Shown one piece after another: positions 30,682 through 43,362 of a stretch of DNA of 60,231 nucleotides. Position numbers and translations under genes: made by a program. The DNA comes from Gaiellaceae bacterium (lineage in GTDB: Bacteria > Actinomycetota > Thermoleophilia > Gaiellales > Gaiellaceae), in the NCBI GenBank assembly GCA_036555085.1, contig DATBMD010000225.1, positions 1 through 60,231 of the forward strand, given 5' to 3'. How positions within the stretch are numbered: position 1 is the stretch's first letter; every line of letters starts with the position of its first letter. The notes beneath the pieces are model-generated. The model saw only the letters and a program-made list of their open reading frames with translations. It did no database searches and had not been told where the DNA came from.

Positions 30682-30722
30682 GGGGAGTGCCATCGGGAGG
30701 GCGGGAGGGGAGTGCCATCGGG
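30682..30722. repeat. Perfect 16-bp direct repeat, two copies with a 25-bp period
   Basis: ggggagtgccatcggg at 30682-30697 and 30707-30722, in a divergent intergenic region. Confidence 0.75.
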
Positions 30723-30723
30723 G

Positions 30724-30755
30724 CTGTACGGGCCGGACAGGTCCGGCCCCTACAG
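30724..30755. repeat. GTAG-family REP-like palindrome
   Basis: ctgta-c-gggccggac-ag-gtccggccc-c-tacag; the minus strand reads GTAGGGGCCGGACCTGTCCGGCCC. Confidence 0.6.
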
Positions 30756-30894
30756 GCGGGGGGAACGGGCGCCGATGACCCGTTTACGACCCCTTAACGC
30801 GGGGCGGAGCCGCACCTCTCTACCATCGAGGGTTGAGCGGGCGGCGCCCGCTCGCGTTGCACCCGACACCATCGTCCGACAGAGGGAGCCGCTG

Positions 30895-31917
30895 ATGTCA
30901 GGTACCGAGAGCGAGATGCCGCCCGGCACTGCGCACGACGCGCGCCGCGAGCGGCTCGAGGAGGCGCTCGTCGAGATCAAGCGAGTGATCGCGGGCCAGG
31001 ACGCGATGCTCGAGCGCGTACTCGTCTGCCTGGTCGCGGGCGGGCACCTCCTGATCGAGGGCGTTCCCGGCCTGGCCAAGACGCTGACGATCAAGACGAC
31101 CGCGGCCGTGCTCGGCGGCACCTTCAAGCGCGTCCAGTTCACACCCGACCTCGTGCCGTCGGACCTGGTCGGGACGAGGATCTACAAGCCGCGCACGACG
31201 ACCTTCGCGGTGGAGCTCGGGCCGGTGTTCTGCAACTTCCTGCTCGCGGACGAGATCAACCGCGCGCCCGCGAAGGTGCAGTCGGCCCTGCTCGAGGTGA
31301 TGCAGGAGCGCCAGGTGACGATCGGGCACGAGACGCACCCGGTCCCGGACCCGTTCCTCGTGATGGCGACGCAGAACCCGATCGAGTCGGAGGGCACCTA
31401 CCCGCTGCCCGAGGCGCAGGTCGACCGGTTCATGCTGAAGGTGCTCGTGGGGTATCCGGAGCGCGACGAGGAGCTGACGGTCGTCCAGCGCTCGCTCGAG
31501 CTGCCGGCCGAGGTGCGCCAGGTGCTGTCGCTCGTGGACCTGAAGGAGCTGCAGCGCTCCGCGCTCGAGGTCTACGTCGACCCGTCGCTCGTCTCCTACG
31601 CCGTCACCCTCGCGACGGCGACGCGCGTCCCCGCCCGGCACGGGCTGGATGCGTGGTCGGAGTACGTCGCCTACGGCGCGAGCCCGCGCGGCCCGATCGC
31701 GCTCGTCCAGAGCGCACGCGCGCTCGCCCTGATCCACGGCCGCGACTACGTGATCACGCAGGACCTGCTCGCGCTCGTCAAGGACGCCTTCCGCCACCGT
31801 CTGGTCCTGACCTATCAGGCGCTCGCGGAGGAGAAGTCGGCCGACGACATCCTCGACGCAGTCATCCACGCGGTCCCGCAGCCGGCGCTCGACCTGCGGC
31901 GGATCGCCGCGGCATGA
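30895..31917 (+). CDS. moxR: MoxR-family AAA+ ATPase
   Basis: EGVPGLAKT, RVQFTPDLVPSD, LADEINRAPAK, ATQNPIE and GASPR motifs. Confidence 0.93.
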   Translation: MSGTESEMPPGTAHDARRERLEEALVEIKRVIAGQDAMLERVLVCLVAGGHLLIEGVPGLAKTLTIKTTAAVLGGTFKRVQFTPDLVPSDLVGTRIYKPRTTTFAVELGPVFCNFLLADEINRAPAKVQSALLEVMQERQVTIGHETHPVPDPFLVMATQNPIESEGTYPLPEAQVDRFMLKVLVGYPERDEELTVVQRSLELPAEVRQVLSLVDLKELQRSALEVYVDPSLVSYAVTLATATRVPARHGLDAWSEYVAYGASPRGPIALVQSARALALIHGRDYVITQDLLALVKDAFRHRLVLTYQALAEEKSADDILDAVIHAVPQPALDLRRIAAA

Positions 31918-31937
31918 TCCTCCCGCCACGCGCATGA
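31914..31937 (+). CDS. 7-aa minigene MILPPRA, coupled by ATGA overlaps at both ends
   Basis: ATG 31914 overlaps the moxR TGA, and its own TGA (31935-31937) overlaps ATG 31934. Confidence 0.4.
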   Translation: MILPPRA

Positions 31938-32059
31938 GGCCTGTGTCGACCTCCCGATCGGCGCCCCTGCTCGGCGCCGGCCGCGCCAGCGGCCGCTTCA
32001 GGGATTGTCGCGATCCCGGATCTGCTCCTGCAGATTCGGGATCTGCGGGGAAGAGATGA
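31934..32059 (+). mobile_element. Peptide-encoding structured intergenic repeat, copy 1 (41-aa ORF MRPVSTSRSAPLLGAGRASGRFRDCRDPGSAPADSGSAGKR)
   Basis: About 85% identical by hand alignment to 53032-53160 (minus strand). Bounded by ATGAG at both ends, with an internal gatcccggatctgc / gcagattcgggatc hairpin. Mobility is inferred. Confidence 0.65.
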
Positions 32060-32985
32060 GCCGGTCGCTCCGGGTCCTCGGCGTCGAGCACACGCCGGAC
32101 CGGCCCGGTCCCGGCGCGATGCCCGACCAGCTCCTCCGGGCGCTGGAGCTCACGATCGGGCGCCGGGTCCAGGGCCTGCTGGCGGGCGACCACCGCTCGG
32201 CGCTGCTCGGCCGCGGCAGCGAGCTCGCCCAGGTGCGGGCGTACGAGCCGGGCGTCGACGACGTGCGCCAGATCGACTGGAACGTGACCGCGCGGACGAA
32301 CGAGCCGCACGTCCGCGTCCAGCTCGCCGAGCGCGTCCTCGTCACGTGGCTCGCGCTCGACACCTCCCCGTCGATGACGTTCGGCACCGCAGACCGGCGC
32401 AAGGCCGACGTCGCGCTGGGCGTCGGGCTCGCACTGGGCCACGCCGCGAGCGCGCGCGGGAACCGCGTCGGGCTCGTCGGGTTCGGCGGCTCGGACGCCA
32501 CCGTGCCTCCCCGGCAGGGCCGCGCCGGCCTCGTCGGGCTGATGATGGCGCTGCGCGACGCGGAGAACGGCCGCAACGGGGGCTCGTCGAGCCTCGGCGG
32601 GGCCCTCCGCCGGCTCGCCGCGGTGAGCCAGCAGCGCGCTCTGGTCGCCATCGTCTCCGACTTCCGCGGCCCCCGTGACTGGCGCTCGCCGCTGCTCGAC
32701 CTCGCCGGCCGGCACGACGTGCTCGCGGTGGAGATCCGCGACCCGCGCGAGCAGGAGCTGCCCGACGTGGGCGAGCTGACCCTCGTCGACCCGGAGACCG
32801 GCCGTCAGCTCCGCGTCGACACCCGCAGCGCCGCGCTCCGGCGCCGCTTCGCCGAAGCCGCCGCGGAGGAGCGCAAGTCGCTCGCGCAGGCGTTCTCCTC
32901 GGCCGGGGTCGCGCACGTCGTCCTGTCGACGTCCGGCGACTGGCTGCGGACGCTCGCCGGCTTCCTTCGGCAGAGGTCGAGATGA
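32056..32985 (+). CDS. DUF58 protein (MoxR-associated, VWA-like)
   Basis: VRAYEPGVDDVRQIDWNVTAR, DTSPSM and IVSDF motifs; ATG at 32056. Confidence 0.9.
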   Translation: MSRSLRVLGVEHTPDRPGPGAMPDQLLRALELTIGRRVQGLLAGDHRSALLGRGSELAQVRAYEPGVDDVRQIDWNVTARTNEPHVRVQLAERVLVTWLALDTSPSMTFGTADRRKADVALGVGLALGHAASARGNRVGLVGFGGSDATVPPRQGRAGLVGLMMALRDAENGRNGGSSSLGGALRRLAAVSQQRALVAIVSDFRGPRDWRSPLLDLAGRHDVLAVEIRDPREQELPDVGELTLVDPETGRQLRVDTRSAALRRRFAEAAAEERKSLAQAFSSAGVAHVVLSTSGDWLRTLAGFLRQRSR

Positions 32986-33956
32986 GCTTCGCCTGGCCGC
33001 TCGCGCTCGTCGGGCTCGTGCTCGTTCCGATCGCCGTCGCGGGCTACGTCTTCGCGGAGCGCAGGCGGGAGCGCGACGCCGCGACGTTCTCCAACCCCGA
33101 CCTGCTGCCGAACCTGCTCGCCGAGCGCCCGGGCCGCCGCCGGCACCTGCCGCCGCTGCTCGCGCTCGGAGCCTTGACGCTGCTGCTGGTCGGGCTCGCG
33201 CGCCCGCACGCGACGCTCTCGACGCCGAAGGAGGAGGCGACGGTGATGCTGGCGCTCGACGTCTCGCGCTCGATGGCCGCCGAGGACGTGCAGCCCAACC
33301 GCTTCGAGGCCGCGCGGGCCGCCGTGACGGCGTTCCTCGAGAAGGTGCCGGACACCTACCCTGTCGGCATGGTCGCGTTCTCGACGAAGGCCGAGGTCGT
33401 GCTGCCGCCGACCGTCGATCGCGAAGCTGCGCGCGCCGCGCTGAAGGCGCTGCGGCTGGGCTCGGGAACCGCCATGGGCGACGCGATCGCGACCGCCATC
33501 TCGGCGGTGCCGCAGCCGACCCAGGCAGAGCAGGCCGCCGGCGAGGAGCCGACGCCGACGTCGGTGCTGCTGCTCTCGGACGGCGCCCAGACGGCGGGCG
33601 GGACGCAGCCGCTCGACGCCGCGCGGCGCGCTCGCCAGCTCGGCATCCCGGTCTCGACCGTCGCGCTCGGCACGTCGGACGCGGTCGTCGAGGTGCCGCT
33701 GCCCGGCGGGCTGTCCCAGCGCGTCACGGTCCCGCCCGACGCCGCGACGCTGAAGCAGGTCGCCGAGGCCACCGGCGGCCGCTTCTTCGAGGCGCCCGAC
33801 GCCGAGCAGCTGAACACCGTCTACGAGGATCTCGGCTCGCGCCTGGGCAGCGAGGACAAGAAGCGCGAGGTGACCTCGGCGTTCGCGGGCGGCGGCGCGC
33901 TGCTGCTGCTCGCCGGCGGGGCGCTGTCGGCGCTCTGGTTCCGGAGGGCGCTGTGA
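32982..33956 (+). CDS. BatA-like membrane VWA-domain protein
   Basis: N-terminal TM segments, LARP, MIDAS DVSRS, GTAMGDAI, LLSDG and a C-terminal TM segment. Confidence 0.9.
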   Translation: MSFAWPLALVGLVLVPIAVAGYVFAERRRERDAATFSNPDLLPNLLAERPGRRRHLPPLLALGALTLLLVGLARPHATLSTPKEEATVMLALDVSRSMAAEDVQPNRFEAARAAVTAFLEKVPDTYPVGMVAFSTKAEVVLPPTVDREAARAALKALRLGSGTAMGDAIATAISAVPQPTQAEQAAGEEPTPTSVLLLSDGAQTAGGTQPLDAARRARQLGIPVSTVALGTSDAVVEVPLPGGLSQRVTVPPDAATLKQVAEATGGRFFEAPDAEQLNTVYEDLGSRLGSEDKKREVTSAFAGGGALLLLAGGALSALWFRRAL

Positions 33957-34693
33957 CGCGGGCCGTCGTCGTCGCCCTGGTCGCCGGGCTCGCGACGGTC
34001 GCGCTCGGGGCTGTTGCCCCGGCCGCAGCCGCCGCGGACGAGTGCCGCGGGCTGCCGGTCTGCCTGCCCGTGGCCGGGCCGTGGGTCGTGATCCCGGCGC
34101 CGGCGCCGGGCGCCCGCACGTCCGCCGTCGAGTGGGAGCTCCGCTGCCCGCTGCGCGGGTACATCGTGGCGGGCACCGACGTGCGGATCTCGGACCGAGG
34201 GATCGACGTCAGCTTCCGCGGCGAGAGCGGCAGCCCCGTGGCGCCGGGCGTCACCACCCGGGCGAGCGCGGTCTTCACCGCCGTCTACACCGGCACCGCC
34301 CGCAAGGCGACGAGCTTCCGCCCCTTCATCGGCTGCATCCCCACCCAGGGCGGCGGCGGCCGCGCCCAGACCGTGCACGCGCCGCGGACGCTCGCCGCGC
34401 TCCGGCCGGGGAACCCGCTCGAACGGCGCGTCGGGCGCGTGCGCTTCGGCACGGGGGCGACCCGCTCCGTCACGGCCGCGTGCCAGCGAGGCGACCGGCT
34501 GGTCGGCTCCTCGCACGCGCTCGGCTTCCACACGGCGCTCGAGCCCGGCGCCTCGCTGCTCGGGCTCGTACGGGCAACGCACGTCGAGCGCGCCAGGAGC
34601 GTCGTCGGGCGCGGTGCCGCGTCGACGGCCCTGCCGGGCGGGATCCAGGTGGAGCTGCAGGCGCACGCCCTGTGCGCGAGGAGCGGCAGGTGA
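33953..34693 (+). CDS. Secreted Cys-containing hypothetical protein within the MoxR operon
   Basis: Signal peptide ending AAAAA-DEC, six Cys, GTGA overlaps on both sides. Confidence 0.7.
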   Translation: MTRAVVVALVAGLATVALGAVAPAAAAADECRGLPVCLPVAGPWVVIPAPAPGARTSAVEWELRCPLRGYIVAGTDVRISDRGIDVSFRGESGSPVAPGVTTRASAVFTAVYTGTARKATSFRPFIGCIPTQGGGGRAQTVHAPRTLAALRPGNPLERRVGRVRFGTGATRSVTAACQRGDRLVGSSHALGFHTALEPGASLLGLVRATHVERARSVVGRGAASTALPGGIQVELQAHALCARSGR

Positions 34694-35667
34694 GCTTCGA
34701 GGCGCCCCAGCTCCTGCTGACGCTGCTCGTCGTCCCGCTGGCGCTGCTCGGGTACCTCTGGGTGCAGCGACGTCGCAGCCGCTACGCGGTCAGCTTCACG
34801 AACCTCGGCGTGCTCGAGACGGTGGTCGAGCAGACGCCGTCCTGGCGACGGTGGCTGCCGCTGGGGCTGCTGCTGGCGGCGCTCGCGGCGCTCTGCATCG
34901 CGGTGGCGCGCCCGACGGTGACCCTGGCGTCCCCTCAGGAGCGCGCGACCGTGATCCTCGTAGTCGACGTGTCGGGCTCGATGCGGGCGGAGGACGTGGC
35001 GCCGACCCGGCTGGGCGCGGCGCAGGAGGCGATGCGGAAGTTCCTCGACAAGGTGCCGCGGCAGCTGCGCGTCGGGATCGTGTCGTTCTCGGACGAGGCG
35101 CAGGTGGTCGTGCCGCCGACGTCGGACAAGGACCTGCTGCGGTCGGGGATCGACCTGCTGACGCCCGGGTTCGGCACGGCGATCGGGGACGGGATCGTGC
35201 GGGCCGTCGAGCTGGGGCAGAGCGTGGAGGCGGAGGGCGGTGAGCCGCCGGATGCCGAGGACAAGCCGCTGACGGCCGTGCTGATGCTGTCGGACGGGTT
35301 CCAGACCCGCGGCCTGGTGGAGCCGCTCGACGCGGCGCAGCTCGCGAAGGAGCAGCGCATGCCCGTCTACACGATCGCGCTGGGCACGGACGAGGGGACG
35401 ATCGAGGTGTTCCGGTTCGGCGAGCGGCAGACGGTGCCGGTGCCGCCCGACCGGGAGACGATGGCGGCGGTCGCCGAAGCGACCGGCGGCGAGTACTTCA
35501 GCGCGTTCGACGCGGAGCGCCTGACGTCGGTCTACGAGGAGCTCGGCTCGGAGGTGGGCAGGGTGGACGAGCCGAAGGAGGCGACCGTCGCGTTCGTGTT
35601 CGGCGGTGCGGCGCTGCTCCTCGGCGCCGGCGTGCTCTCCGGGCTCTGGCTGCCGCGCCTGCCGTAG
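34690..35667 (+). CDS. Second BatA-like membrane VWA-domain protein
   Basis: Starts VSFEAPQLL at a GTGA overlap. MIDAS DVSGS, GTAIGDGI and MLSDG motifs; paralog of 32982..33956. Confidence 0.9.
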   Translation: MSFEAPQLLLTLLVVPLALLGYLWVQRRRSRYAVSFTNLGVLETVVEQTPSWRRWLPLGLLLAALAALCIAVARPTVTLASPQERATVILVVDVSGSMRAEDVAPTRLGAAQEAMRKFLDKVPRQLRVGIVSFSDEAQVVVPPTSDKDLLRSGIDLLTPGFGTAIGDGIVRAVELGQSVEAEGGEPPDAEDKPLTAVLMLSDGFQTRGLVEPLDAAQLAKEQRMPVYTIALGTDEGTIEVFRFGERQTVPVPPDRETMAAVAEATGGEYFSAFDAERLTSVYEELGSEVGRVDEPKEATVAFVFGGAALLLGAGVLSGLWLPRLP

Positions 35668-35669
35668 GG

Positions 35670-37010
35670 CTACGAGCGCCGGACCCTGAACGTGGTCTCG
35701 CCGAGCAGCTTGCCGTAGCGAGGCTGCTTCCGCGTTCCGAACGCGGGCCAGACGAAGAGGCGATAGGCCCCGTTCGCGAGCGTGCGGCGGCGGCCGTCGT
35801 ACGTCCACGCCCGTCTCAGCCGCAGGCGCGGCTCGACGACCCAGGCGCTCAGCACCTTCGTCGTGCCGTGGTAGAGCTGCACGTTGTAGAAGCGCGCCCC
35901 CGCGACGTCCTCCCACGCCGCCCGGGGCGGCGCTCGGAGCACCGTTCCCGCGGCGGGGGCGAAGACCGGCGCGCGCGGCAGCGCCGCGATCGTCCGGGCG
36001 GCTGCGTTGCCCGCCTCGTCGAGGCTGCGGAGCAGGTACCGGTAGCGCACGCCGTTGCGGACCGCGCGGTCGAGGAACGAGACCTTCCGGCCGCGGTAGA
36101 CGGTGCTGCGTGACGCGCTGCCGAGGCCGGGGATGCGGACGAGCTCGTAGAGCCGGGCCGACGGCGAGCGCGCCCAGCGGACGCGGGTGAAGCCGCTGCC
36201 CGTCTCGACCCGGAGCCGTCCGGCCGCTGCGGGCGGCTTGCTGTCGTAGCGCAGCGTCAGCGCCGCCGGCGCGCCCGCGTTGCCGGCCGCGTCGCGGCAG
36301 GATCCCGACACCGCCGCCCGGGCGGTCTCGGGTCCGCCGTACGTCACCGGCCCGTCGCACGAGGCGACGCCCGACAGGGCGTCGACGCCGCTGAAGCGAA
36401 CCGCGACGGGTGCCCGGTACCAGCCGTTGGCGTCGGGCGCGCGGGCCGCCACGGCCGCCACGGTCGGTGGCGTCGAGTCGTAGCGGAGGGAGAACGAGCC
36501 CGAGCTCGTGTTGCCGGCGACGTCGCGGCACGTGCCTGCGACCGATGCCGTCGCGGTGTCGGGCCCGGAGTACGTGGCGCCGGCGCAGGCGGCGATCCCG
36601 GAGGTCGCGTCCGTGCCCGTGAACCCGACTGCGACCGGATGGTTGAACCACTCTCCCCAGTCGGGCGCGCGCTCGGCGGCCGCCCCGGTGACGGCCGGCG
36701 GCGTCGCGTCGCGCCTGATCACCTTGCCGGCCTCGACGTAGTCGCTGCCGTACCAGACCCGGCAGGTGACGGACGCTCCGGCCGTGTCGGCGCTGACGGT
36801 GACCACGTCGCAGTCCGTGGCGGTCACGCCGGCCGGGTCGTAGCTCCAGGTGACGGTCACGTCGGTCGTGAACCAGCCGGCGCAGCCGACCGGCGCGGAA
36901 CCTCCCGGCGTCCAGCAGCTCGCGGTGGGTAGCGCGGGCGCGCCGCTCGCCGGCCCGGCGACGACGCACGCCACCGCGACCGTCAGCGCGAGCGGCAGGA
37001 GGCGTCTCAC
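35670..37010 (-). CDS. Secreted protein with tandem Ig-like/beta-sandwich repeats and an FN3-like region
   Basis: Signal peptide VRRLLPLAL...ASGA. Repeated D.TPP...W...PVAV.F.G.D..SG...C...C.D.AGN units and YRYLLRSLDEAGN. Confidence 0.75.
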   Translation of the reverse strand: MRRLLPLALTVAVACVVAGPASGAPALPTASCWTPGGSAPVGCAGWFTTDVTVTWSYDPAGVTATDCDVVTVSADTAGASVTCRVWYGSDYVEAGKVIRRDATPPAVTGAAAERAPDWGEWFNHPVAVGFTGTDATSGIAACAGATYSGPDTATASVAGTCRDVAGNTSSGSFSLRYDSTPPTVAAVAARAPDANGWYRAPVAVRFSGVDALSGVASCDGPVTYGGPETARAAVSGSCRDAAGNAGAPAALTLRYDSKPPAAAGRLRVETGSGFTRVRWARSPSARLYELVRIPGLGSASRSTVYRGRKVSFLDRAVRNGVRYRYLLRSLDEAGNAAARTIAALPRAPVFAPAAGTVLRAPPRAAWEDVAGARFYNVQLYHGTTKVLSAWVVEPRLRLRRAWTYDGRRRTLANGAYRLFVWPAFGTRKQPRYGKLLGETTFRVRRS

Positions 37011-37576
37011 GCGGCGCCCCTCAGCGATCGTCCTGCGCCGGCGGCGACGACGCCTGCGCCGAGCGCGACCAGCGCGAGCGAGATGCCCGCGACGGCCAGC
37101 AGGCCGCGATCGTGGCCGTCCGCCGCCCTCGAGACGACGCGGAGAACCGGCAGGTCGAGCCGGAACAGGGCGGGAACGTCGATCACGGGAGCCGGGCGAG
37201 CGGCAGGCGGTTGCAGGCGCCGGCGGTCCCTCGCCGGGGGCCGCTGCGACTCGGCGGACGTAGCCGCGCTCGGCGGCGGGGCGGCGGGCTGTGCTCGGGT
37301 CGGAAGGGCGGGAGCGGCGGCGCGGGCCGCCGCGGGGGATGGCGGCGGCCGCACCGCCGCCGCCGCGGGCCGGGGTGCCGCCGTCGGCGGCGCATCGGGC
37401 CCGGGGGCGGTGAGCGCTCCCTGCGCGGGAGCGTCGGGGGTCGGCGACGTCGCCGCGCCGGCCAGGGCAGGTGCCGCGAGGACGGCGGCGCAGGTCACGA
37501 GGACGGCACGCCGAGTGGACGGCGCCCGTGGCGCGCCGCCTCGTCGCCGCAGAGACGATGTGCCCGAACTGCTCAT
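37007..37576 (-). CDS. Pro/Ala-rich exported protein with a C-terminal membrane anchor
   Basis: Arg-rich N-region with hydrophobic signal, Pro-rich stalk and C-terminal TM segment. Its stop overlaps the next GTG. Confidence 0.6.
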   Translation of the reverse strand: MSSSGTSSLRRRGGAPRAPSTRRAVLVTCAAVLAAPALAGAATSPTPDAPAQGALTAPGPDAPPTAAPRPAAAAVRPPPSPAAARAAAPALPTRAQPAAPPPSAATSAESQRPPARDRRRLQPPAARPAPVIDVPALFRLDLPVLRVVSRAADGHDRGLLAVAGISLALVALGAGVVAAGAGRSLRGAA

Positions 37577-37614
37577 CGCCGCCGCCTCTCGCTGCCGGAC
37601 TGACTGCGCCACCC

Positions 37615-37643
37615 ACGGTAGGCCGGAGCGCGGATCGTGTCAA
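37615..37643 (-). promoter_or_regulatory. Near-consensus housekeeping sigma promoter TTGACA-N17-TACCGT
   Basis: Minus-strand -35 at 37643-37638 and -10 at 37620-37615, with an exact 17-nt spacer, upstream of ATG 37576. Confidence 0.7.
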
Positions 37644-37658
37644 TCGAGCGCCCGTACT

Positions 37659-37696
37659 GGGTGGGGGCGCGGCGGCTGCAGGCCGCGCCCCCACCC
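37659..37696 (-). terminator. 15-bp hairpin downstream of the repeat-protein gene
   Basis: gggtgggggcgcggc / gccgcgcccccaccc with an 8-nt loop, about 10 nt past the stop at 37706. Confidence 0.7.
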
Positions 37697-37705
37697 CGGC
37701 CGGGC

Positions 37706-39997
37706 CTATCGCATCGGCACCTCCTCGTCGAGCGTCGGGCGCTCCCGGCACGGGCGCTTCGACTCGCACCGGTCGCGCTTCGGGCAGCGCACCTTCCACT
37801 CGCACGGCGACGGCTCATCGCGGCGGTCGCCCTTGCTGCACGGATCGTCCTGCTCGCAGGCAGGGCGACCGCACGGATCCGACTTCGGCAGCTCGCAGCG
37901 CTCGCGCTGCTTCCACCGGTCGTCGGGCTTCCGCCAGCCGTCGGTCTCGTCCGGATCCTGCTTCGGGTCGTCGCCCTTGCGCGGATACGGGGTCTCGCAC
38001 GGCTGCCGCTTGTCGCAGCGGTCGTGCTTACCGAGGATCGACACGGGCGCGTTCACGTTCCTCGCACCGATCTGGAACGCGTCGGCGTCCGCGTCGGCGT
38101 CCTGGTGGTTCCAGGCCTTCTGACCCGCCGCCTGGATCGAGAGCCCACCGGGGCCGCTCTGGCTCTGGCCGATCGACTGGTGCGTGCCGTTCAGGTTGAC
38201 GGCGGCGGCCAGCGCCGCGACGAGATTCGACTGCTCGACCGATCCGGCCGATCCGTCCTCGCCGTCGTGGCCCTTGCCCTTGTCCAGCACGGCAACGGGT
38301 GCGTTGACGTTCTCGGCGCAGCACTGCGTCGCGTCTGCGTCCGCGTCTGCCTTCTGCTCGTTGCCGGCCAGCTGCCCGGCGGCCTGGATGTACGGGCCAC
38401 CGGGGCCACCCGACTGCTGCTGGTCGATCGACTGCGTCGTCTTGTCGAGGTTCGCCGCGAGCGCGCCTGCGAGCGCGGCATTCGACTGCTCGACGGAGCC
38501 GCCGCCACCGGGGCTGAGCACCCGCACCGGCGCGTTCACGTTCGACGGCGCGTACTGGACCGCGTCCGCGTCGGCGTCTGCGTGCTGGTCGCTGGTGGCC
38601 TTCTGGCCAGCCACCTGGAGCCCGGGCCCACCGGACTGCTGCCCGATCGACTGGTGCGTCTCGTTGGCGTTCAGGGCACCCGCCAGCGCGAGCGACGTGT
38701 TCGACTGCGAGACCGGCCCGTCGGCTCCCGGGCTGCCCACGCGGATCGAGGCGTTCTCGTTGGTCGGGTGGATCTGCTTCGAGTCGGCGTCGGCGTCGGC
38801 GTCCTGCTCGCTCTTCGCGAGCTGGCCGGCGATCTGGGCGCCCGGCCCACCCGACTGGCTCTGGGTGATGCACTGGCACGTCGTGTTCGTGTTCGCCGCC
38901 AGCGCTCCCGCGGCGCTCGTGTTCGACTGGGTGACCGGGCCGTTGTCGCCGGGGCTGAAGATGCGCACCGAGACGTTCGTGTTCTTCGGGTGCACCTGCT
39001 TCGAGTCGGCGTCGGCGTCGGCGTCCTGGTCGTTGTCGGCCTTCTGCCCGGCGATCTGGGTGGAGCTGCCGCCGGGCCCGCCGCCGGTCTGGTCCTGCTC
39101 GACCGACTGGGTCGTCTCGTTGCCGTTCGCGGCGAGCGCGCCGGCGATCGACGTGTTGGACTGCGAGACGGGCCCGTCGTCGCCGGGGCTGAAGATGCGC
39201 ACCGAGACGTTCGTGTTCTGCGGGTGCACCTGCTTCGAGTCGGCGTCGGCGTCGGCGTCCTGGTGGTTGTCGGCCGACTGGCCCGCGACCTGCGTGGAGC
39301 CCGTGCCAGACCCTGACTGGCTCTGGCTCACGTCCTGCGCGGTGTTGTTGCCGTTCAGCGCGCCGGCGAGGGCGATCGAGTCGTTCGACTGGGTGACCGG
39401 CCCGTTGTCGCCGGGGCTGAAGACGCGGATCGTGACGTTCGTGTTCTCGGGCGCGATCTGCGTCGAGTCGGCGTCCGCATCCGCGTCCTGCTTGTTGTCT
39501 GCCGACTGCCCGGCCACCTGCGTGGAGCCGCCGGTCGGCGGGATCGTGCTCGAGCCGTAGTCGGGCTCGGGCTTGGGCTCGGGCTCGGTCGAGGGGGCGG
39601 GCTCGCCGCCCTGCTCCTGCGCGACCGTCTGGCCCGTCTCGTTGCCGTTCCCGGCGAGCGCGCCGGCGAGCGACCCGTTCGACTGGGACGTCCCCTCCGG
39701 CTCGGTCGGCGTCTCCGCCGGCTCCGAGTCGGCGGTGTCGGCGGGCGGCTCGGGAGCCACCGGCTCCGTCGTCCCCGTCGGCTCTGTCGTCTCCGCCGCG
39801 TCGGGCTGCTCGTCTGGCGTGGCGAGATCCGGGAGGTACTGCCCGACCAGGGCCAGGGCGTCGCCGGCCGGATCGCTCGACTCCGCCTGGCCCGCCGCCG
39901 GGAGGGCCGGTGGGCTGCCCGTGTCGGCCGCGGCGGTGCCCGCCCAGATGCAGAGGGCGAGCGCAGCGCCGAGGCTGGCACCAAGCGTGCGTCTCAT
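37706..39997 (-). CDS. Secreted 763-aa Gln/Asn/Ser/Gly/Ala-rich tandem-repeat protein with a Cys-rich C-terminal tail (candidate fibre or functional amyloid subunit)
   Basis: AAAGGAG ribosome-binding site and Sec signal. Six full repeats of about 75 aa (Q.AGQ.A...QDADADAD..Q..P.N.N...R..SPG..G.V.QSN...AGALA.N.N.T.Q...Q.Q.GG) plus two half-repeats. Ten Cys in the last ~105 aa. Confidence 0.8.
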   Translation of the reverse strand: MRRTLGASLGAALALCIWAGTAAADTGSPPALPAAGQAESSDPAGDALALVGQYLPDLATPDEQPDAAETTEPTGTTEPVAPEPPADTADSEPAETPTEPEGTSQSNGSLAGALAGNGNETGQTVAQEQGGEPAPSTEPEPKPEPDYGSSTIPPTGGSTQVAGQSADNKQDADADADSTQIAPENTNVTIRVFSPGDNGPVTQSNDSIALAGALNGNNTAQDVSQSQSGSGTGSTQVAGQSADNHQDADADADSKQVHPQNTNVSVRIFSPGDDGPVSQSNTSIAGALAANGNETTQSVEQDQTGGGPGGSSTQIAGQKADNDQDADADADSKQVHPKNTNVSVRIFSPGDNGPVTQSNTSAAGALAANTNTTCQCITQSQSGGPGAQIAGQLAKSEQDADADADSKQIHPTNENASIRVGSPGADGPVSQSNTSLALAGALNANETHQSIGQQSGGPGLQVAGQKATSDQHADADADAVQYAPSNVNAPVRVLSPGGGGSVEQSNAALAGALAANLDKTTQSIDQQQSGGPGGPYIQAAGQLAGNEQKADADADATQCCAENVNAPVAVLDKGKGHDGEDGSAGSVEQSNLVAALAAAVNLNGTHQSIGQSQSGPGGLSIQAAGQKAWNHQDADADADAFQIGARNVNAPVSILGKHDRCDKRQPCETPYPRKGDDPKQDPDETDGWRKPDDRWKQRERCELPKSDPCGRPACEQDDPCSKGDRRDEPSPCEWKVRCPKRDRCESKRPCRERPTLDEEVPMR

Positions 39998-40071
39998 CTG
40001 TTGTCTCCTTTGGACTCGTTCGTCGGCGGGGCCCAGGGTGGCCCCGCGGCAGGGCTCGGACGCGGTTTGCG

Positions 40072-41289
40072 CTACCCGGGCCGTTCCGGGAACGAGTCGA
40101 CGCGCTGGGACCGCGGCAGCGCCGGCTCGAGCCGGAGCCGGCGCAGCAGGTCGAGCAGCGCGAGGAAAAGCGTGAGCAGCGTGGCCGCGAGCACGGCTCC
40201 TCCGGCCGAGGACGAGCCGCCGGCGGAGGCCGACGACCCGCTCGGCGCGGTTCCGGCAGCGGAGCGCAGGTCGAGCGGCGCCGGCCGCGCCGGTCGCTCG
40301 GCCCGGGCCTCACGCGGCGCCGGTCGGGCCGTTGGGGAGCGCTCTGCGCGCGCCGGACGGTCGGCCGGCGCCGCCGCATCGGGCGGGGCGCGCCGGGCCT
40401 CGGCGGGCGCCGCGACCGCACGTGCCCCCGCGGCGACGTCGTCTACCGCTGGGGGCACGGCGGGCGGCGGCGGGCGGCCGAGCTCACGCGCTGCCGGCGG
40501 CAGCGCGTGTCGCGCAGGCTGGGGGGAGAGGAGCCCGACGACCGGTTGCGATACGGCCTCCGGGAGCTCGGCCACGCCTTCTGGTACCGGGATCTCGATC
40601 TCCGTCGACAGTGCGGGGGCTTCCGGCGAGGACGTCGCTGTCTGCGCGGATTCGATTGGCAGTTCGACAGCGATCGAGACGTGATACTGCTCGAGAAGCA
40701 ACTGGTATCGCTCGACGAATTCGCGAACGGAATTCGCCGAGAGACGGCGCGCCATGTCGCACGCGGCGGCGAGCCCCAGCAGCCCACGTATCTGCTCGGT
40801 GTCGCAGGCGTTCGGCGGCGACGGCGCCGGGGAGGCGGCGCGGTTCGGGGGCGGCGCGGGCCGCGGCGCCGGTCGGGGCGCCGGCTCGCTGGCGGCGGGC
40901 GGCGTCGGCGGCGCGACGGGTGCGGGACGAGCCGGAAGCGGCGTCGCGGCGCGATACTGCGACTGAACAGGCTGATATCGCACCGGTTTCACGGGGCTCG
41001 GCGCGGCCGGCTGCGGCTGTGGGGGCGGCGGTGGCGCCGCGGCGGTCGCCGCTGCCGGCTCGGGCTCGCCGGGAGCGGCGGCGGGGCTCGGTGTCGCGGC
41101 CTGCTCGACGAGCGCCGTCACGTCCTCGGGCAGCGGCACCTCGGCGAGCGCTTCCTGGACCATCTGCGTCACGTCGACGGGGAGGACCGGCTCGCTCGAC
41201 GGGGTTTCCGCACGGGCGTCGGCACAGATGCAAAGCGCTGCGAAAGTCGCGAGCAGCGCGCCGAGCGAGGCGGAATAGAGCGTGGGCAC
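40072..41289 (-). CDS. Pro/Ala-rich exported membrane-anchored protein ending in ...SFPERPG*
   Basis: Signal-like VPTLYSASLGALLATFAALCICADARA, long Pro-rich stalk, C-terminal TM segment and short basic tail. Start is 41289 or 41295. Confidence 0.65.
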   Translation of the reverse strand: MPTLYSASLGALLATFAALCICADARAETPSSEPVLPVDVTQMVQEALAEVPLPEDVTALVEQAATPSPAAAPGEPEPAAATAAAPPPPPQPQPAAPSPVKPVRYQPVQSQYRAATPLPARPAPVAPPTPPAASEPAPRPAPRPAPPPNRAASPAPSPPNACDTEQIRGLLGLAAACDMARRLSANSVREFVERYQLLLEQYHVSIAVELPIESAQTATSSPEAPALSTEIEIPVPEGVAELPEAVSQPVVGLLSPQPARHALPPAARELGRPPPPAVPPAVDDVAAGARAVAAPAEARRAPPDAAAPADRPARAERSPTARPAPREARAERPARPAPLDLRSAAGTAPSGSSASAGGSSSAGGAVLAATLLTLFLALLDLLRRLRLEPALPRSQRVDSFPERPG

Positions 41290-41360
41290 ACGCACCTCGA
41301 GTTGTAAATACCCAACGGAGAGGGATATGAGCCGTGCAGGTCGACAATTACACTCGCGGC

Positions 41361-41957
41361 ATGCATTGCGACGACGAAATGCACGCGGGTGTGTGCGGCG
41401 CCGCGAACGGGCAGGCCCGCAGGCTGGGGCGCCAGCAGCTGATCGAGCAGCACCTGCCGCTCGTGCGCTCGCTCGCACGCCCGTTCGCCGGCCGTGGCGA
41501 GCACCTCGACGATCTCGTCCAGGTCGGCGCGATCGGGTTGATCAAGGCGGTCGACCGTTTCGACCCGGCCCGCGGCCGGCCCCTGGCCGCGTACGCGGTA
41601 CCCACCATCAGGGGCGAGATCAGGCGGTACCTGCGCGATCGCGCCGCCCCCCTCCGCGTCCCGCGGGTCGAGCAGAGCCGTGGTCGCGTCGTGATCGGGC
41701 TGCCGCTCGCCGAGGGGCGCGACGAGAGCTCTGCCGCCGGCGAGGCGAGCGCGCTGGAGCTGGGCGAGAGCAGGGCGCTCCTGCACGACGGGATGCGCGC
41801 GCTCGACAGCCGCGAGAAGCGGATCGTCCACCTCCGCTACTTCGGCGACCTCAGCCAGAGCGGCATCGCGGCAGAGCTCGGGCTCTCGCAGACCCACGTC
41901 TCGCGCCTGCTGCGCGGCTCGCTCGAGAAGCTGCGAGCCGAGATCGGCGCGCGGTAG
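41361..41957 (+). CDS. SigB/SigF-like (group 3) sigma factor with a shortened or absent region 3
   Basis: Region 2 DDLVQVGAIGLIKAVDRFDP...YAVPTIRGEIRRYLRD and region 4 LRYFGDLSQSGIAAELGLSQTHVSRLL. TACACT lies 6 nt before ATG 41361. Confidence 0.85.
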   Translation: MHCDDEMHAGVCGAANGQARRLGRQQLIEQHLPLVRSLARPFAGRGEHLDDLVQVGAIGLIKAVDRFDPARGRPLAAYAVPTIRGEIRRYLRDRAAPLRVPRVEQSRGRVVIGLPLAEGRDESSAAGEASALELGESRALLHDGMRALDSREKRIVHLRYFGDLSQSGIAAELGLSQTHVSRLLRGSLEKLRAEIGAR

Positions 41958-42018
41958 CAGCCTGATACTGCGTTCGAGCGATTGCCGGAACCCGCTTGAG
42001 AGCTAGAATTCCCGCAAG

Positions 42019-42345
42019 GTGAGCGCTCAGCCGTCCGCTCGGCCGTCGGGGGCGTCGACGCCGGAAACGGCGCCCGTGCCCAGCGGGCGCCTGCTCCTGC
42101 GTATGCCCAGCGAGCTCCACGGCGAGCTCGCCCGCGCCGCGGAGCGTGACGGGACCAGCCTCAACCAGTTCATCACGCGCTCGCTCGCCGGCACGGTCGG
42201 CTGGCAGGGCGCCGGCAGCCCGCCGGCGCGGCGCGCCTCAGCGCGCGGCGCCGACCTGACGACCGTCGTCCTCGTCGTCAACGCCGTGGTCGTCGGGCTC
42301 GCAGCGGTCGCCGCGATCGCGATCCTCGTCGTCGCGCTCGGCTAG
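42019..42345 (+). CDS. HicB-like ribbon-helix-helix protein with a C-terminal TM helix
   Basis: SGRLLLRMPSELHGELARAAERDGTSLNQFI followed by a hydrophobic C-terminus. TAGAAT lies upstream. Confidence 0.75.
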   Translation: MSAQPSARPSGASTPETAPVPSGRLLLRMPSELHGELARAAERDGTSLNQFITRSLAGTVGWQGAGSPPARRASARGADLTTVVLVVNAVVVGLAAVAAIAILVVALG

Positions 42346-42369
42346 CCGCGGTCCTCTACTGTCCGGGCC

Positions 42370-43362
42370 GTGCGGGTACTCGTCACGGGCGGCGCCGGAA
42401 TGCTCGGGCAGAAGCTGGCCGCGCGCCTGGCGGCGGACGGCGCGCTCGGCGGCGAGCGCCTCGAGCGGCTGACGCTCCTCGACGTGGCGGCGCCGGCGCC
42501 GCCCGCCGCAGGGCCGACTCGGGTCGACGTCGCGGCCGCCGACCTGGCGGAGCCCGAGATCGCCGCGGAGCTGGTCTCCGCCCGCCCGGACGTGATCTTC
42601 CACCTGGCCGCGGTTCTCTCCCATGAGGCCGAGAGCGACTTCGAGCGCGGGTACCGCGTCAACCTCGACGGCACCCGGCTGCTGCTGGAGGCGGTGCGCG
42701 GGGCGGGCGCCGGGTATCGCCCGCGCGTCGTCTTCGCTTCCTCGATCGCCGTCTTCGGCGCGCCCCTGCCCGATGTGGTCGGCGACGAGCACTGCCTGAC
42801 GCCGTTGACCAGCTACGGGACGCAGAAGGCGATCGGCGAGCTGCTGCTGTCCGACTACGCGCGGCGCGGGCTCCTCGACGGAATCGGGATCCGGCTGCCG
42901 ACGATCTGCGTCCGGCCCGGACCCCCCAATCGCGCTGCCTCCAGCTTCTTCTCGAGCATCATCCGCGAGCCGCTGAACGGTCGGGTCGCCGTGCTGCCCG
43001 TCCCGGACGACGTGCGCCACTGGCATGCCTCCCCGCGCGCGGCGATCCGCTTCCTGCTGCACGCTGCGACGCTGGACACCGACCTGCTCGGCGACCGCCG
43101 CTGCCTGACGATGCCGGGCGTCTCGGCAACCGTCGCCGAGCAGGTCGAGGCGCTCCGCCGTGTCGCGGGCGACGAGGCCGTGCGCCTGATCCGGCGGGAG
43201 CCGGACGAGCTGGTGACGCGCATCGTGACCGGCTGGCCGCGCAGCTTCGACGCCCGCCGCGCGACCGAGCTGGGGTTCCGGGCGGAGGCGGACTTCGACG
43301 AGATCGTTCGCGTGTACGTCGAGGACGAGCTCGGCGGCACGTTCGCGGGAGCGGCCGCGTGA
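42370..43362 (+). CDS. denD: D-erythronate dehydrogenase-like NAD-dependent epimerase/dehydratase
   Basis: [20 protein letters not shown] and [28 protein letters not shown] motifs. Confidence 0.8.

What the first reader, a model, noticed from the sequence alone, without database searches (positions are those of the whole stretch)
38030..39690. Candidate new functional amyloid or beta-solenoid fibre protein with complementary terminal half-repeats
Seen: six full ~75-aa repeats with fixed Gln/Asn positions, alternating small residues (QDADADAD, AGALAAN) and Gly/Pro turns. An isolated second half-repeat (SQSNGSLAGALAGNGNETGQTVAQEQGG) lies near the N-terminus on a Pro/Glu linker, and a first half-repeat ends the array. 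The gene has a strong ribosome-binding site and its own terminator. Knowledge: curli (CsgA) and Fap amyloids use Q/N ladders, and NVNAPV recalls chaplin-type motifs, but this repeat matches none I recognise. Inference: the half-repeats could complete each other between subunits and drive head-to-tail polymerisation.
Basis: partly seen in the sequence, partly recalled or inferred. Interest (0 to 1): 0.8.

Follow-up and report, generated by a model that had tools for sequence, protein, structure and literature searches.

The report
Giant curli-like fibre protein, soil actinobacteria
A soil actinobacterium has a gene for a likely exported protein made of seven ~75-residue repeats, predicted to fold into an unusually wide, open-ended beta-coil that would stack end to end into amyloid-like surface fibres; it belongs to a large protein family that matched no named family, and no fibre has yet been seen.

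Summary
The gene is real (37706-39997, minus strand, 763 aa): signal peptide, Pro/Glu linker, Q/N repeats, Cys/charged tail. The "six repeats plus two complementary halves" are better read as seven whole repeats. The first has a long loop of a size common in the family, and AlphaFold folds it into the monomer.

The family is large (1,484 clusters at 50% identity), mostly Thermoleophilia, with no Pfam, NCBIfam or PDB sequence match. The model (pLDDT 89.5) is a two-sheet parallel beta-solenoid with one ~75-residue rung per repeat, about three times curli's, and no caps. Its closest folds are SufB/D and curli CsgA. Two copies of a bare-ended homologue are predicted to stack head-to-tail in register (0.86; best control 0.00).

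A membrane-anchor gene ending xxPG-stop lies 70-83 nt upstream in all 23 loci examined. It often carries rung fragments (possible nucleator). In most relatives a predicted stem hides the fibre gene's ribosome-binding site, resembling arrest-peptide control.

Best reading: major subunit of an undescribed curli-like fibre (about 0.6). It is not a member of curli, Fap or chaplin. Polymerisation, amyloid state and expression are untested.

The parts
37706..39997 (-). Repeat-protein gene, 763 aa (P0001): predicted major fibre subunit
   Evidence: 668 homologues at E<=1e-3 among 7994 candidates scored; no Pfam/NCBIfam family at cut-off
39926..39997 (-). Signal-peptide-like N-terminus, residues 1-24 (basic start, hydrophobic core, AAA-D end)
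   Evidence: read from the sequence; no signal-peptide predictor was available; helix 2-18
39692..39925 (-). Pro/Ala/Thr/Glu/Asp linker, residues 25-102, predicted disordered
   Evidence: composition; pLDDT <50 for 1-93
39611..39691 (-).
39527..39610 (-). Pro/Glu insertion in the variable A-to-B loop of rung 1, residues 130-157
   Evidence: low pLDDT; spacing 55 within family range
38033..39526 (-). B1-C1 and rungs 2-7, residues 158-655: each rung = strand A (~28 aa), Gly loop, strand B (~24 aa), Pro kink, strand C (~9 aa), SPG loop
   Evidence: single-rung HMM finds A1, five full B-C-A units plus one with an insertion, and a final B-C, and no other copy in the genome
37709..38032 (-). C-terminal tail, 108 aa, 10 Cys, Arg/Asp/Pro/Lys/Glu-rich, net charge about +1, predicted disordered
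40005..40010 (-). Shine-Dalgarno AAGGAG, 7 nt before the ATG
39998..40071 (-). 74-nt structured spacer between partner stop and repeat-gene start (70-83 nt in all 23 loci)
   Evidence: in this window the SD itself is predicted open (0.76)
37659..37696 (-). 15-bp GC hairpin after the stop, no U-tract; TTGACA follows at 37638-37643
40072..41295 (-). Partner gene, 407 aa: signal-peptide-like start, Pro/Ala linker, one C-terminal hydrophobic segment, ending ERPG-stop; no rung fragments in this lineage
   Evidence: start codon inferred from a leaderless-type context shared with relatives and the 407-aa database protein
41334..41957 (+). Divergent SigB/SigF-like sigma factor
   Evidence: Sigma70_r2/r4; TIGR02980 below cut-off; syntenic in 6 of 6 loci L013-L018
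42019..42345 (+). HicB-like small DNA-binding domain plus C-terminal hydrophobic segment
   Evidence: PF05534; syntenic in 6 of 6 loci
37007..37612 (-). Downstream small Pro-rich protein with N-terminal signal-like and C-terminal hydrophobic segments
   Evidence: no family; no tblastn match in related loci; a Pro-rich ORF sits at the same place in L013 (by eye)
35670..37010 (-). Downstream secreted-type beta-rich protein (start approximate)
   Evidence: weak tblastn matches in L013-L017 and L011; no Pfam family

Best explanation
The gene encodes a repeat protein that is likely exported and is predicted to fold as an uncapped, very wide two-sheet beta-solenoid, whose copies would stack head-to-tail into a curli-like (cross-beta) surface fibre. 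Shown by sequence: seven whole repeats, a strict alternation of conserved Gln/Asn/Ala positions with variable charged positions, no membrane or sortase anchor, and a conserved gene cluster. Predicted: each ~75-residue repeat is one giant beta-arch in which strand A packs against strand B-C through a Gln/Asn/Ala zipper; rungs stack parallel and in register; both ends are free beta-edges; the linker, loop and Cys tail hang outside. Inferred: after Sec export the subunits polymerise by beta-sheet extension from last rung to first rung; the upstream membrane protein anchors the fibre and in most lineages primes it with rung fragments; the divergent sigma factor controls the cluster; Cys in loops and tails may cross-link fibres.
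For: (1) AlphaFold2 on a 100-row alignment: pLDDT 89.5, pTM 0.84, only strands. In the full-length model, residues 1-93 and 658-763 are disordered, so no caps form. (2) VIA-align against 48,161 chains: SufB/D-type beta-helices Z 12.0 (rmsd 3.2, 207 aligned) to 9.5; curli CsgA 8c50 Z 10.3 (rmsd 7.8, 165 aligned); E. coli CsgA fibril 8enq Z 6.7. (3) Family columns over 964 A strands and 783 B-C strands: every second position is Q/N/A/S/T/V with 0% charged residues in the A strand, and the positions between carry the charges. The regex fixed some of these columns, but not the Ala, Asn19, Thr21 or Gln29 columns. (4) Two copies of the natural 5-rung homologue P0123 (ESMFold2): score 0.86, best of 3 controls 0.00. 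The mark was reached by 20 of 30 proteins solved as pairs and by 1 of 23 solved as single chains; these counts hold only roughly because my own alignment was used. Runs agree in at least 97% of contacts; partner pLDDT is 90. The last rung (346-416) sits on the first rung (27-98), like residue on like residue at offset 320. The pass may reflect likeness to solved curli-type stacks. (5) P0123 and 14 of 16 listed short relatives start on a B strand directly after the signal peptide and stop at the end of an A strand, leaving no room for a cap. (6) None of 119 homologues has a hydrophobic anchor after residue 40 or an LPxTG/LAxTG motif. (7) A partner gene ending in PG-stop lies upstream in 23 of 23 loci. 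13 of 17 partners from other fibre loci carry rung fragments, one of them two whole rungs. (8) The n+1/2 layout of most members has a precedent: curli R15.5 has a half-repeat overhang and still forms polar fibres with a 2(1) screw (PMC10192328, passages).
Against: No experiment exists: polymerisation, amyloid properties and expression are unshown. The dimer was predicted for a homologue (about 47% identical), not for the window's protein, and structure predictors may stack any open-ended solenoid; the controls were unrelated proteins, not monomeric solenoids. The best fold matches are SufB/D, which are soluble Fe-S scaffold proteins (recalled), and Foldseek found nothing at E<=0.001. The repeat region has net charge -44, and in-register Asp ladders would repel unless cations bind. 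In 17 of 135 last rungs a conserved Val/Ile is replaced by Glu, against 1 of 733 internal rungs, which could be design against stacking. Many members end on a degenerate strand plus a basic tail that could act as a cap. The window's own partner has no rung fragment, so nucleation by the partner is unsupported here. Distribution is patchy: 12 of 24 same-genus genomes, 15 of 250 in the class.
Confidence: 0.6

Rival explanations
1. The protein is a non-filamentous surface protein: a monomeric or small-oligomer beta-solenoid, or a 2D coat or S-layer tile, whose broad flat Asp/Thr/Ser faces bind cations, minerals, ice or polysaccharide.
For: Top folds include soluble beta-helices (SufB/D), an antifreeze protein (3p4g, Z 6.9), adhesins and the RsaA S-layer. 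The outer positions are acidic or Thr/Ser-rich. Terminal rungs are often modified.
Against: No caps are predicted, and natural members have bare ends. The in-register end-to-end dimer passes. Without an anchor of its own the protein needs a partner or polymer to stay on the cell.
Confidence: 0.27
2. One reading: the tethered N-terminal A strand is donated to the neighbouring subunit and completes its C-terminal half-repeat (donor-strand polymerisation).
For: A1 is flanked by flexible linkers on both sides. The layout is kept in 8 of 119 homologues. In this lineage the partners lack the rung fragments that others carry. Because A1 is the terminal strand, it touches the next subunit in any head-to-tail stack.
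Against: A1 folds into its own chain in both models. The loop length is ordinary for the family. Most members lack the layout, and a homologue without it stacks.
Confidence: 0.1
3. The protein is a peptidase inhibitor (family I78) or another enzyme-related protein, as precomputed labels on some homologues suggest.
For: PF11720 matches 10 of 65 members and many hits; scattered JGI names such as 'GTP cyclohydrolase II' and 'trimeric autotransporter adhesin' appear.
Against: No single stretch passes the threshold (0 stretches in P0008 and P0022), so the score is summed over repeats. The query has no such match. The names disagree with one another.
Confidence: 0.02

Closest known systems
Curli (CsgA major subunit, CsgB nucleator; PF07012; PDB 8c50, 8enq)
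   Same: Exported, Q/N-rich imperfect repeats; two-sheet parallel beta-solenoid with inward Q/N zipper; open ends; head-to-tail stacking; members with a half-repeat overhang (PMC10192328, passages); fold match Z 10.3 and 6.7.
   Different: The rung is ~75 residues with ~28- and ~33-residue sides, against two 7-residue motifs per curlin repeat. No sequence match. No Curlin_rpt or CsgG found in this 92.9%-complete genome. The host is an actinobacterium; the partner is a membrane-tethered protein.
Fap amyloid (FapC/FapB of Pseudomonas; PDB 9u4u)
   Same: Longer imperfect Q/N repeats, one layer per repeat, flexible linkers between or within repeats (PMC12822426, passages).
   Different: FapC has three repeats with a Greek-key cross-section. 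Here there are 5 to about 15 rungs predicted as long two-sided arches. Foldseek E 3.9, TMq 0.04; no sequence match.
Streptomyces chaplins (PF03777)
   Same: Actinobacterial, exported, amyloid-forming; a short free form plus an anchored form (recalled); a short N-x-N-x-P-V motif looks similar by eye.
   Different: No PF03777 match in the query at E<=1 or in 65 members at E<=0.01. No LPxTG/LAxTG signal in 119 members. The anchor is a membrane helix on a separate gene.
SufB/SufD beta-helix (PDB 9h78, 4dn7, 5awf, 1vh4)
   Same: Best fold scores (Z 9.5-12, about 207 residues aligned): wide two-sided parallel beta-helix.
   Different: 8-10% identity; only about 30 residues per rung align. SufB/D are cytoplasmic Fe-S assembly proteins with capping domains (recalled); this protein is signal-peptide-bearing and uncapped.
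Monitoring-substrate arrest peptides (SecM, MifM, VemP, ApcA; NSP-stop, NAP-stop, DGMK-stop) - for the partner gene
   Same: N-terminal export signal, long spacer, conserved C-terminal Pro-containing motif, and a stem-loop hiding the next gene's SD (bioRxiv 10.1101/2023.09.02.556018, passages; here).
   Different: The motif is [ED]xPG-stop. The downstream gene is a fibre subunit, or a LuxR or resolvase gene, not sec/yidC. The partner is 400-700 aa with a membrane helix near its end. Arrest is untested.

Membership tests
Curli (CsgA/CsgB) | Curlin repeat (PF07012; two 7-residue N-x-psi-x-psi-x-Q motifs) | tested here: not met
   no Pfam hit at E<=1; none in 65 members; profile finds no CsgA in PDB sequences at E<=10; repeat is ~75 aa
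Curli (CsgA/CsgB) | CsgG/E/F secretion machinery | tested here: not met
   CsgG (PF03783) not found in own genome, 92.9% complete; control rang in 4 of 14 genomes; CsgE and CsgF were not searched
Curli (CsgA/CsgB) | Two-sheet parallel beta-solenoid with inward Q/N zipper and open ends | tested here: met
   predicted only:
Curli (CsgA/CsgB) | Head-to-tail in-register stacking of subunits | tested here: inconclusive
   prediction passes for homologue P0123 (0.86 vs best control 0.00; 20 of 30 and 1 of 23 calibration); not run on the window's protein and not shown by experiment
Functional amyloid (general) | Cross-beta diffraction, ThT/Congo red binding, SDS resistance, fibres in vivo | not testable with these tools
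   needs protein or cells
Fap (FapC/FapB) | Three Fap repeats, sequence homology to FapC | tested here: not met
   seven repeats of a different pattern; no match to PDB sequences
Fap (FapC/FapB) | Greek-key layer fold | tested here: inconclusive
   Foldseek 9u4u E 3.9, TMq 0.04; not among the 50 VIA rows shown; model coordinates could not be inspected
Chaplin | Chaplin domain PF03777 | tested here: not met
   the genome-wide search is uninformative because its control rang nowhere
Chaplin | Sortase signal on long forms | tested here: not met
   0 of 119 members with LPxTG/LAxTG in the last 50 residues
SufB/SufD | Sequence family membership | tested here: not met
   no Pfam/NCBIfam hit; 8-10% identity in structural alignment
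Peptidase inhibitor I78 | A complete ~65-residue I78 domain | tested here: not met
   no hit in the query; 0 passing stretches in P0008 and P0022
Monitoring-substrate arrest peptide (partner gene) | N-terminal export signal, >30-residue spacer, conserved C-terminus | tested here: met
   signal peptide read by eye; criteria from bioRxiv 10.1101/2023.09.02.556018
Monitoring-substrate arrest peptide (partner gene) | Stem-loop hiding the downstream SD within reach of the stalled ribosome | tested here: inconclusive
   SD more paired than shuffles in 20 of 23 loci (median 0.11 vs 0.38; 0.53 with a ribosome-sized block), many of them close kin; NOT in this window (0.76 vs 0.55)
Monitoring-substrate arrest peptide (partner gene) | Located upstream of a sec or yidC gene | tested here: not met
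   downstream genes are the repeat gene, a LuxR-type gene or a resolvase
Monitoring-substrate arrest peptide (partner gene) | Ribosome stalling released by force | not testable with these tools
   needs toeprinting or reporter assays

The most novel reading that the evidence does not exclude
An undescribed amyloid-fibre system of soil actinobacteria. It would be built from the widest beta-solenoid rungs yet seen in a bacterial fibre (~75 residues, about 9-10 nm if the strands run straight). Synthesis of the subunit would be gated by an upstream secreted, membrane-tethered protein that stalls its ribosome at an [ED]xPG-stop, opens the stem over the subunit's ribosome-binding site, and also displays rung fragments that prime or sense the fibre. 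That would be an arrest-peptide circuit controlling a structural polymer, reused elsewhere in front of LuxR and resolvase genes.
Probability: 0.2. Interest if true: 0.88.

Novelty: new variant of a known kind. Interest (0 to 1): 0.7.

Why it matters
Thermoleophilia are common soil bacteria (recalled), and my literature searches found no described surface fibre for them. The near-identical locus is held at 0.90-0.96 of sampled words by 19 soil and rhizosphere DNA runs. If the prediction holds, this is an independent solution to functional amyloid in actinobacteria, with rungs about three times curli's and long tolerated loop insertions. That would bear on soil biofilm and aggregate formation and be useful as a protein-material scaffold. 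Natural 5-rung, bare-ended members (~390 aa mature) make the test simple. The PG-stop partner with its fixed spacer is a second testable lead: possible arrest-peptide control outside the Sec/YidC genes.

Tried and rejected
Family and structure searches. Pfam and NCBIfam gave no family for the query. The PDB profile search gave only a signal-peptide match at E 5. Foldseek found nothing at E<=0.001 in the PDB. The viral library gave one weak hit (E 9e-4, TMq 0.15, rmsd 39), rejected. ESM Atlas returned only unnamed clusters. Rfam found nothing over 37400-41500. The Inhibitor_I78 label was rejected as a summed-repeat artefact. A weak tblastn hit on contig C247 lies in a shadow frame, and the rung HMM does not find it.

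Regulatory sites. The promoter scan found nothing. A GGGTAT hexamer before the partner start looked like a SigB/SigF -10 box (recalled consensus), but my patterns found no match in the six related intergenic regions, so it is not claimed.

Loci of the window's own sub-lineage. The metagenome scan gave one short locus, and a 400-genome family search found none.

ERPG-stop pattern searches. The pattern also admitted TGG, so the tallies are not used. After filtering to true stops, 5 of 27 matches had a membrane segment: 2 fibre loci, 1 LuxR, 1 resolvase and 1 likely chance hit in a permease-like gene. Genomes G041 and G128, flagged unpublished, support no claim.

Expression. Five soil metatranscriptome runs hold 0.18-0.26 of the words of 36000-42400. 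No read layout was obtained, so which gene they cover is unknown and this is not counted as evidence.

Regex slips. The first A-strand regex matched nothing and was redone. The terminal census is regex-based, and 8 of 119 rows fell into minor classes that I did not inspect.

Literature. No paper describing the family turned up in searches, and none on an ERPG arrest motif in 64 and 65. These were search listings only, apart from passages of three papers. The library lacks most subscription papers, and no supplements were read. The supplementary tables of the arrest-peptide preprint could list such motifs but are closed.
Full report
OBSERVATION. The finding lies in ORF 37706-39997 on the minus strand, 763 aa. 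It has a signal-peptide-like start (read by eye), a Pro/Ala/Thr/Glu/Asp linker to residue 102, repeats from 103 to 655 and a 108-residue tail with 10 Cys. Each repeat has three parts: strand A (G-x-V-x-Q-S-N...A-x-A-x-A-x-N-x-N-x-T-x-Q-x-I-x-Q-x-Q), strand B (Q-x-A-G-Q-x-A-x-N-x-Q-x-A-D-A-D-A-x-S-x-Q) and a short strand C ending in S-P-G. The seven B strands are 73% identical on average, against 17% in shuffles. The RBS (AAGGAG, 7 nt spacing) and a strong hairpin after the stop (z -4.0) are present. The hairpin has no U-tract, but one recurs in 6 of 6 related loci, followed by TTGAC in 5 of them and in the window.

THE HALF-REPEATS. Seven A and seven B-C segments alternate in order, so whether there are 'halves' depends only on where the repeat is cut. 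The 55-residue first A-to-B spacing is ordinary: 120 of 890 spacings in 121 proteins are 50 or more. AlphaFold places A1 in the folded body in both models. Of 119 homologues, 84 begin and end on B, 8 share the window's layout, 7 run from B to A, 12 are partial and 8 fall in minor regex classes. Donor-half complementation is therefore not a family mechanism.

THE FAMILY. The word-index search gave 668 proteins at E<=0.001 among 7994 candidates scored. An exhaustive profile search gave 1,484 clusters at 50% identity, 1,010 of them at E<=1e-10. None is usefully named. Source labels name Gaiella sp., Gaiellaceae, Solirubrobacteraceae and Limnocylindrales. The Gaiella-labelled protein is encoded in a genome of the same genus as the window's. 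The gene is patchy: 12 of 24 same-genus genomes (one only weakly) and 0 of 16 from other families of the order; 15 of 250 in the class; 2 of 300 in the phylum. It is single-copy in this genome. There is no match in Pfam, NCBIfam or PDB sequences. The Inhibitor_I78 label on some members is a summing artefact.

STRUCTURE (predicted). Residues 99-655 give pLDDT 89.5 and pTM 0.84, with strands of about 28, 24 and 9 residues per repeat. Foldseek finds nothing significant. VIA-align ranks two-sided parallel beta-helices first: SufB/D-type Z 12.0-9.5 and curli CsgA Z 10.3 (rmsd 7.8, 165 aligned). The tool warns that middling Z is common, so this shows the class of fold, not kinship. Family columns alternate strictly between uncharged conserved and variable charged positions. 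The cross-sheet contacts in the dimer model (Gln392-Asn54, Asn394-Pro52, Asn404-Gln39) place strand A antiparallel across from B-C. Each repeat is thus one giant beta-arch. If the strands run straight the slab is roughly 9-10 nm wide; this is my arithmetic from strand length, since I could not see coordinates. In the full-length model both extensions are disordered and form no caps.

POLYMERISATION (predicted). It is a natural 5-rung member that starts on B right after its signal peptide and ends on the last residue of A, a layout shared by 14 of 16 short relatives listed. The dimer scored 0.86 against a best control of 0.00. The mark was reached by 20 of 30 proteins solved as pairs and 1 of 23 solved as single chains, roughly applicable since my alignment was used. 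Runs agreed in at least 97% of contacts, with pLDDT 90. The last rung sits on the first, like on like at offset 320. This supports but does not show binding, and may reflect likeness to solved curli stacks. For members with an extra B strand, curli R15.5 is a precedent: a half-repeat overhang is accommodated by a 2(1) screw (PMC10192328, passages seen). Against a fibre: net charge -44; Glu in place of Val/Ile in 17 of 135 last rungs versus 1 of 733 internal rungs; degenerate terminal strands in many members; and soluble proteins as the best fold matches.

THE CLUSTER. In 6 of 6 loci L013-L018 a SigB/F-like sigma factor and a HicB-like membrane protein match the window's, on the strand opposite the repeat gene. 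A secreted-type protein follows downstream, with matches in 5 of those 6. Starting from the repeat gene's start codon without selecting for the motif, an upstream ORF ending in PG-stop was found in 23 of 25 rows; the other two rows are the partner gene itself. The gap is always 70-83 nt. The partner has a signal-like start, a long Pro/Ala linker, a hydrophobic segment and an [ED]xPG end. In 13 of 17 other fibre loci it carries rung fragments, mostly strand C plus the first half of A, and in one case two whole rungs (some loci are cut short). This fits an anchor or nucleator like CsgB (inference). The window's partner and five close relatives carry none, and this is the lineage whose subunit has its own tethered A1.

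A POSSIBLE TRANSLATIONAL SWITCH. In 20 of 23 loci the repeat gene's SD region is predicted more paired than in shuffles (median 0.11 vs 0.38). In most loci the pairing arm lies between -26 and +13 of the partner's stop codon, and blocking that stretch raises accessibility to a median 0.53. Many of these loci are close kin, though different lineages use different arms. The window is an exception: its stem ends just before an open SD (0.76). The same membrane-ERPG-stop, 72-78 nt spacer and hairpin also precede a LuxR-type gene in this genome and a resolvase in another. The layout matches secM-secA-type monitoring substrates, some of which stall at a stop codon (bioRxiv 10.1101/2023.09.02.556018, passages seen). 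Stalling is untested, and a conserved tail could equally be a protein-binding or proteolysis tag.

COMPARISON AND NOVELTY. It works like curli by prediction but fails curli, Fap and chaplin membership on sequence and machinery. I found no paper on it. Earlier AI notes of this scan describe what looks like the same gene pair in other genomes; these are not independent evidence. I rate it a new variant of a known kind: an unnamed family that probably builds a functional-amyloid-type fibre with an unusually large rung.

VERDICT. Observation partly confirmed; interpretation partly supported. Fibre subunit 0.6, non-filamentous surface solenoid 0.27, donor-strand mechanism 0.1. Expression is unknown. 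Interest 0.7.

Noticed in passing
G000:C322 (L046:814-2589, minus strand): A second signal + Pro/Ala linker + membrane segment + ERPG-stop protein. It is followed after 78 nt by a LuxR-family HTH gene whose SD is paired with the bases right after the stop; no repeat gene is nearby.
   Followed up: partly
L095:1501-2361 (G276): Membrane segment + ERPG-stop, a 72-nt hairpin spacer, then a resolvase/recombinase gene: the module is not limited to fibre genes.
   Followed up: partly
L047 (G361:C6), L044 (G450), L035 (G501): Partner genes that contain whole rungs plus the membrane-ERPG end, i.e. a true anchored minor subunit, next to a divergent main repeat gene.
   Followed up: partly
L013/L014/L023/L029/L030 partner genes: Paired Trp-rich W-x-W-x-W-x-C motifs and QYQ motifs in the partner ectodomain; the window's lineage keeps only RY..QY motifs and a Cys pair.
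   Followed up: no
L020/L049 (G262, another class) and L036 (G493): Divergent versions of the repeat with longer rungs and His/Cys-rich loops, still behind a PG-stop partner.
   Followed up: partly
window 37709-37730 and family C-termini: The window's sub-lineage ends in a conserved E-V-P-M-x-like motif after the Cys tail, whereas most members end in a basic G-G-M-K-K-K-R-type tail; many loops carry CC or CxC pairs (67 of 119 members have 2 or more Cys).
   Followed up: no
ESM Atlas structure rows: A 160-member cluster of 239-aa proteins, mostly Planctomycetota, aligns to the model at TM 0.72 by its own length: a possible distant relative of the fold.
   Followed up: no
G023:C11, G009:C11, G001:C15, G017:C112, G021:C65: Weak matches (E 1e-4 to 1e-8) inside ~1000-aa ORFs elsewhere in same-genus genomes; possibly a second repeat family.
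   Followed up: no
window 41295-41334 and L013-L017: The partner gene appears leaderless: an AT-rich -10-like hexamer sits a few bases before the start codon, back to back with the sigma gene.
   Followed up: partly
window 30712-35667: By eye, a MoxR-type AAA ATPase, a DUF58-like gene and two VWA genes lie just beyond the cluster on the plus strand; no link was tested.
   Followed up: no
L002, L005, L008, L011, L012, L017: Repeat genes in several related assemblies are frameshifted, probably through long-read errors, so many 'short' database members are fragments.
   Followed up: partly
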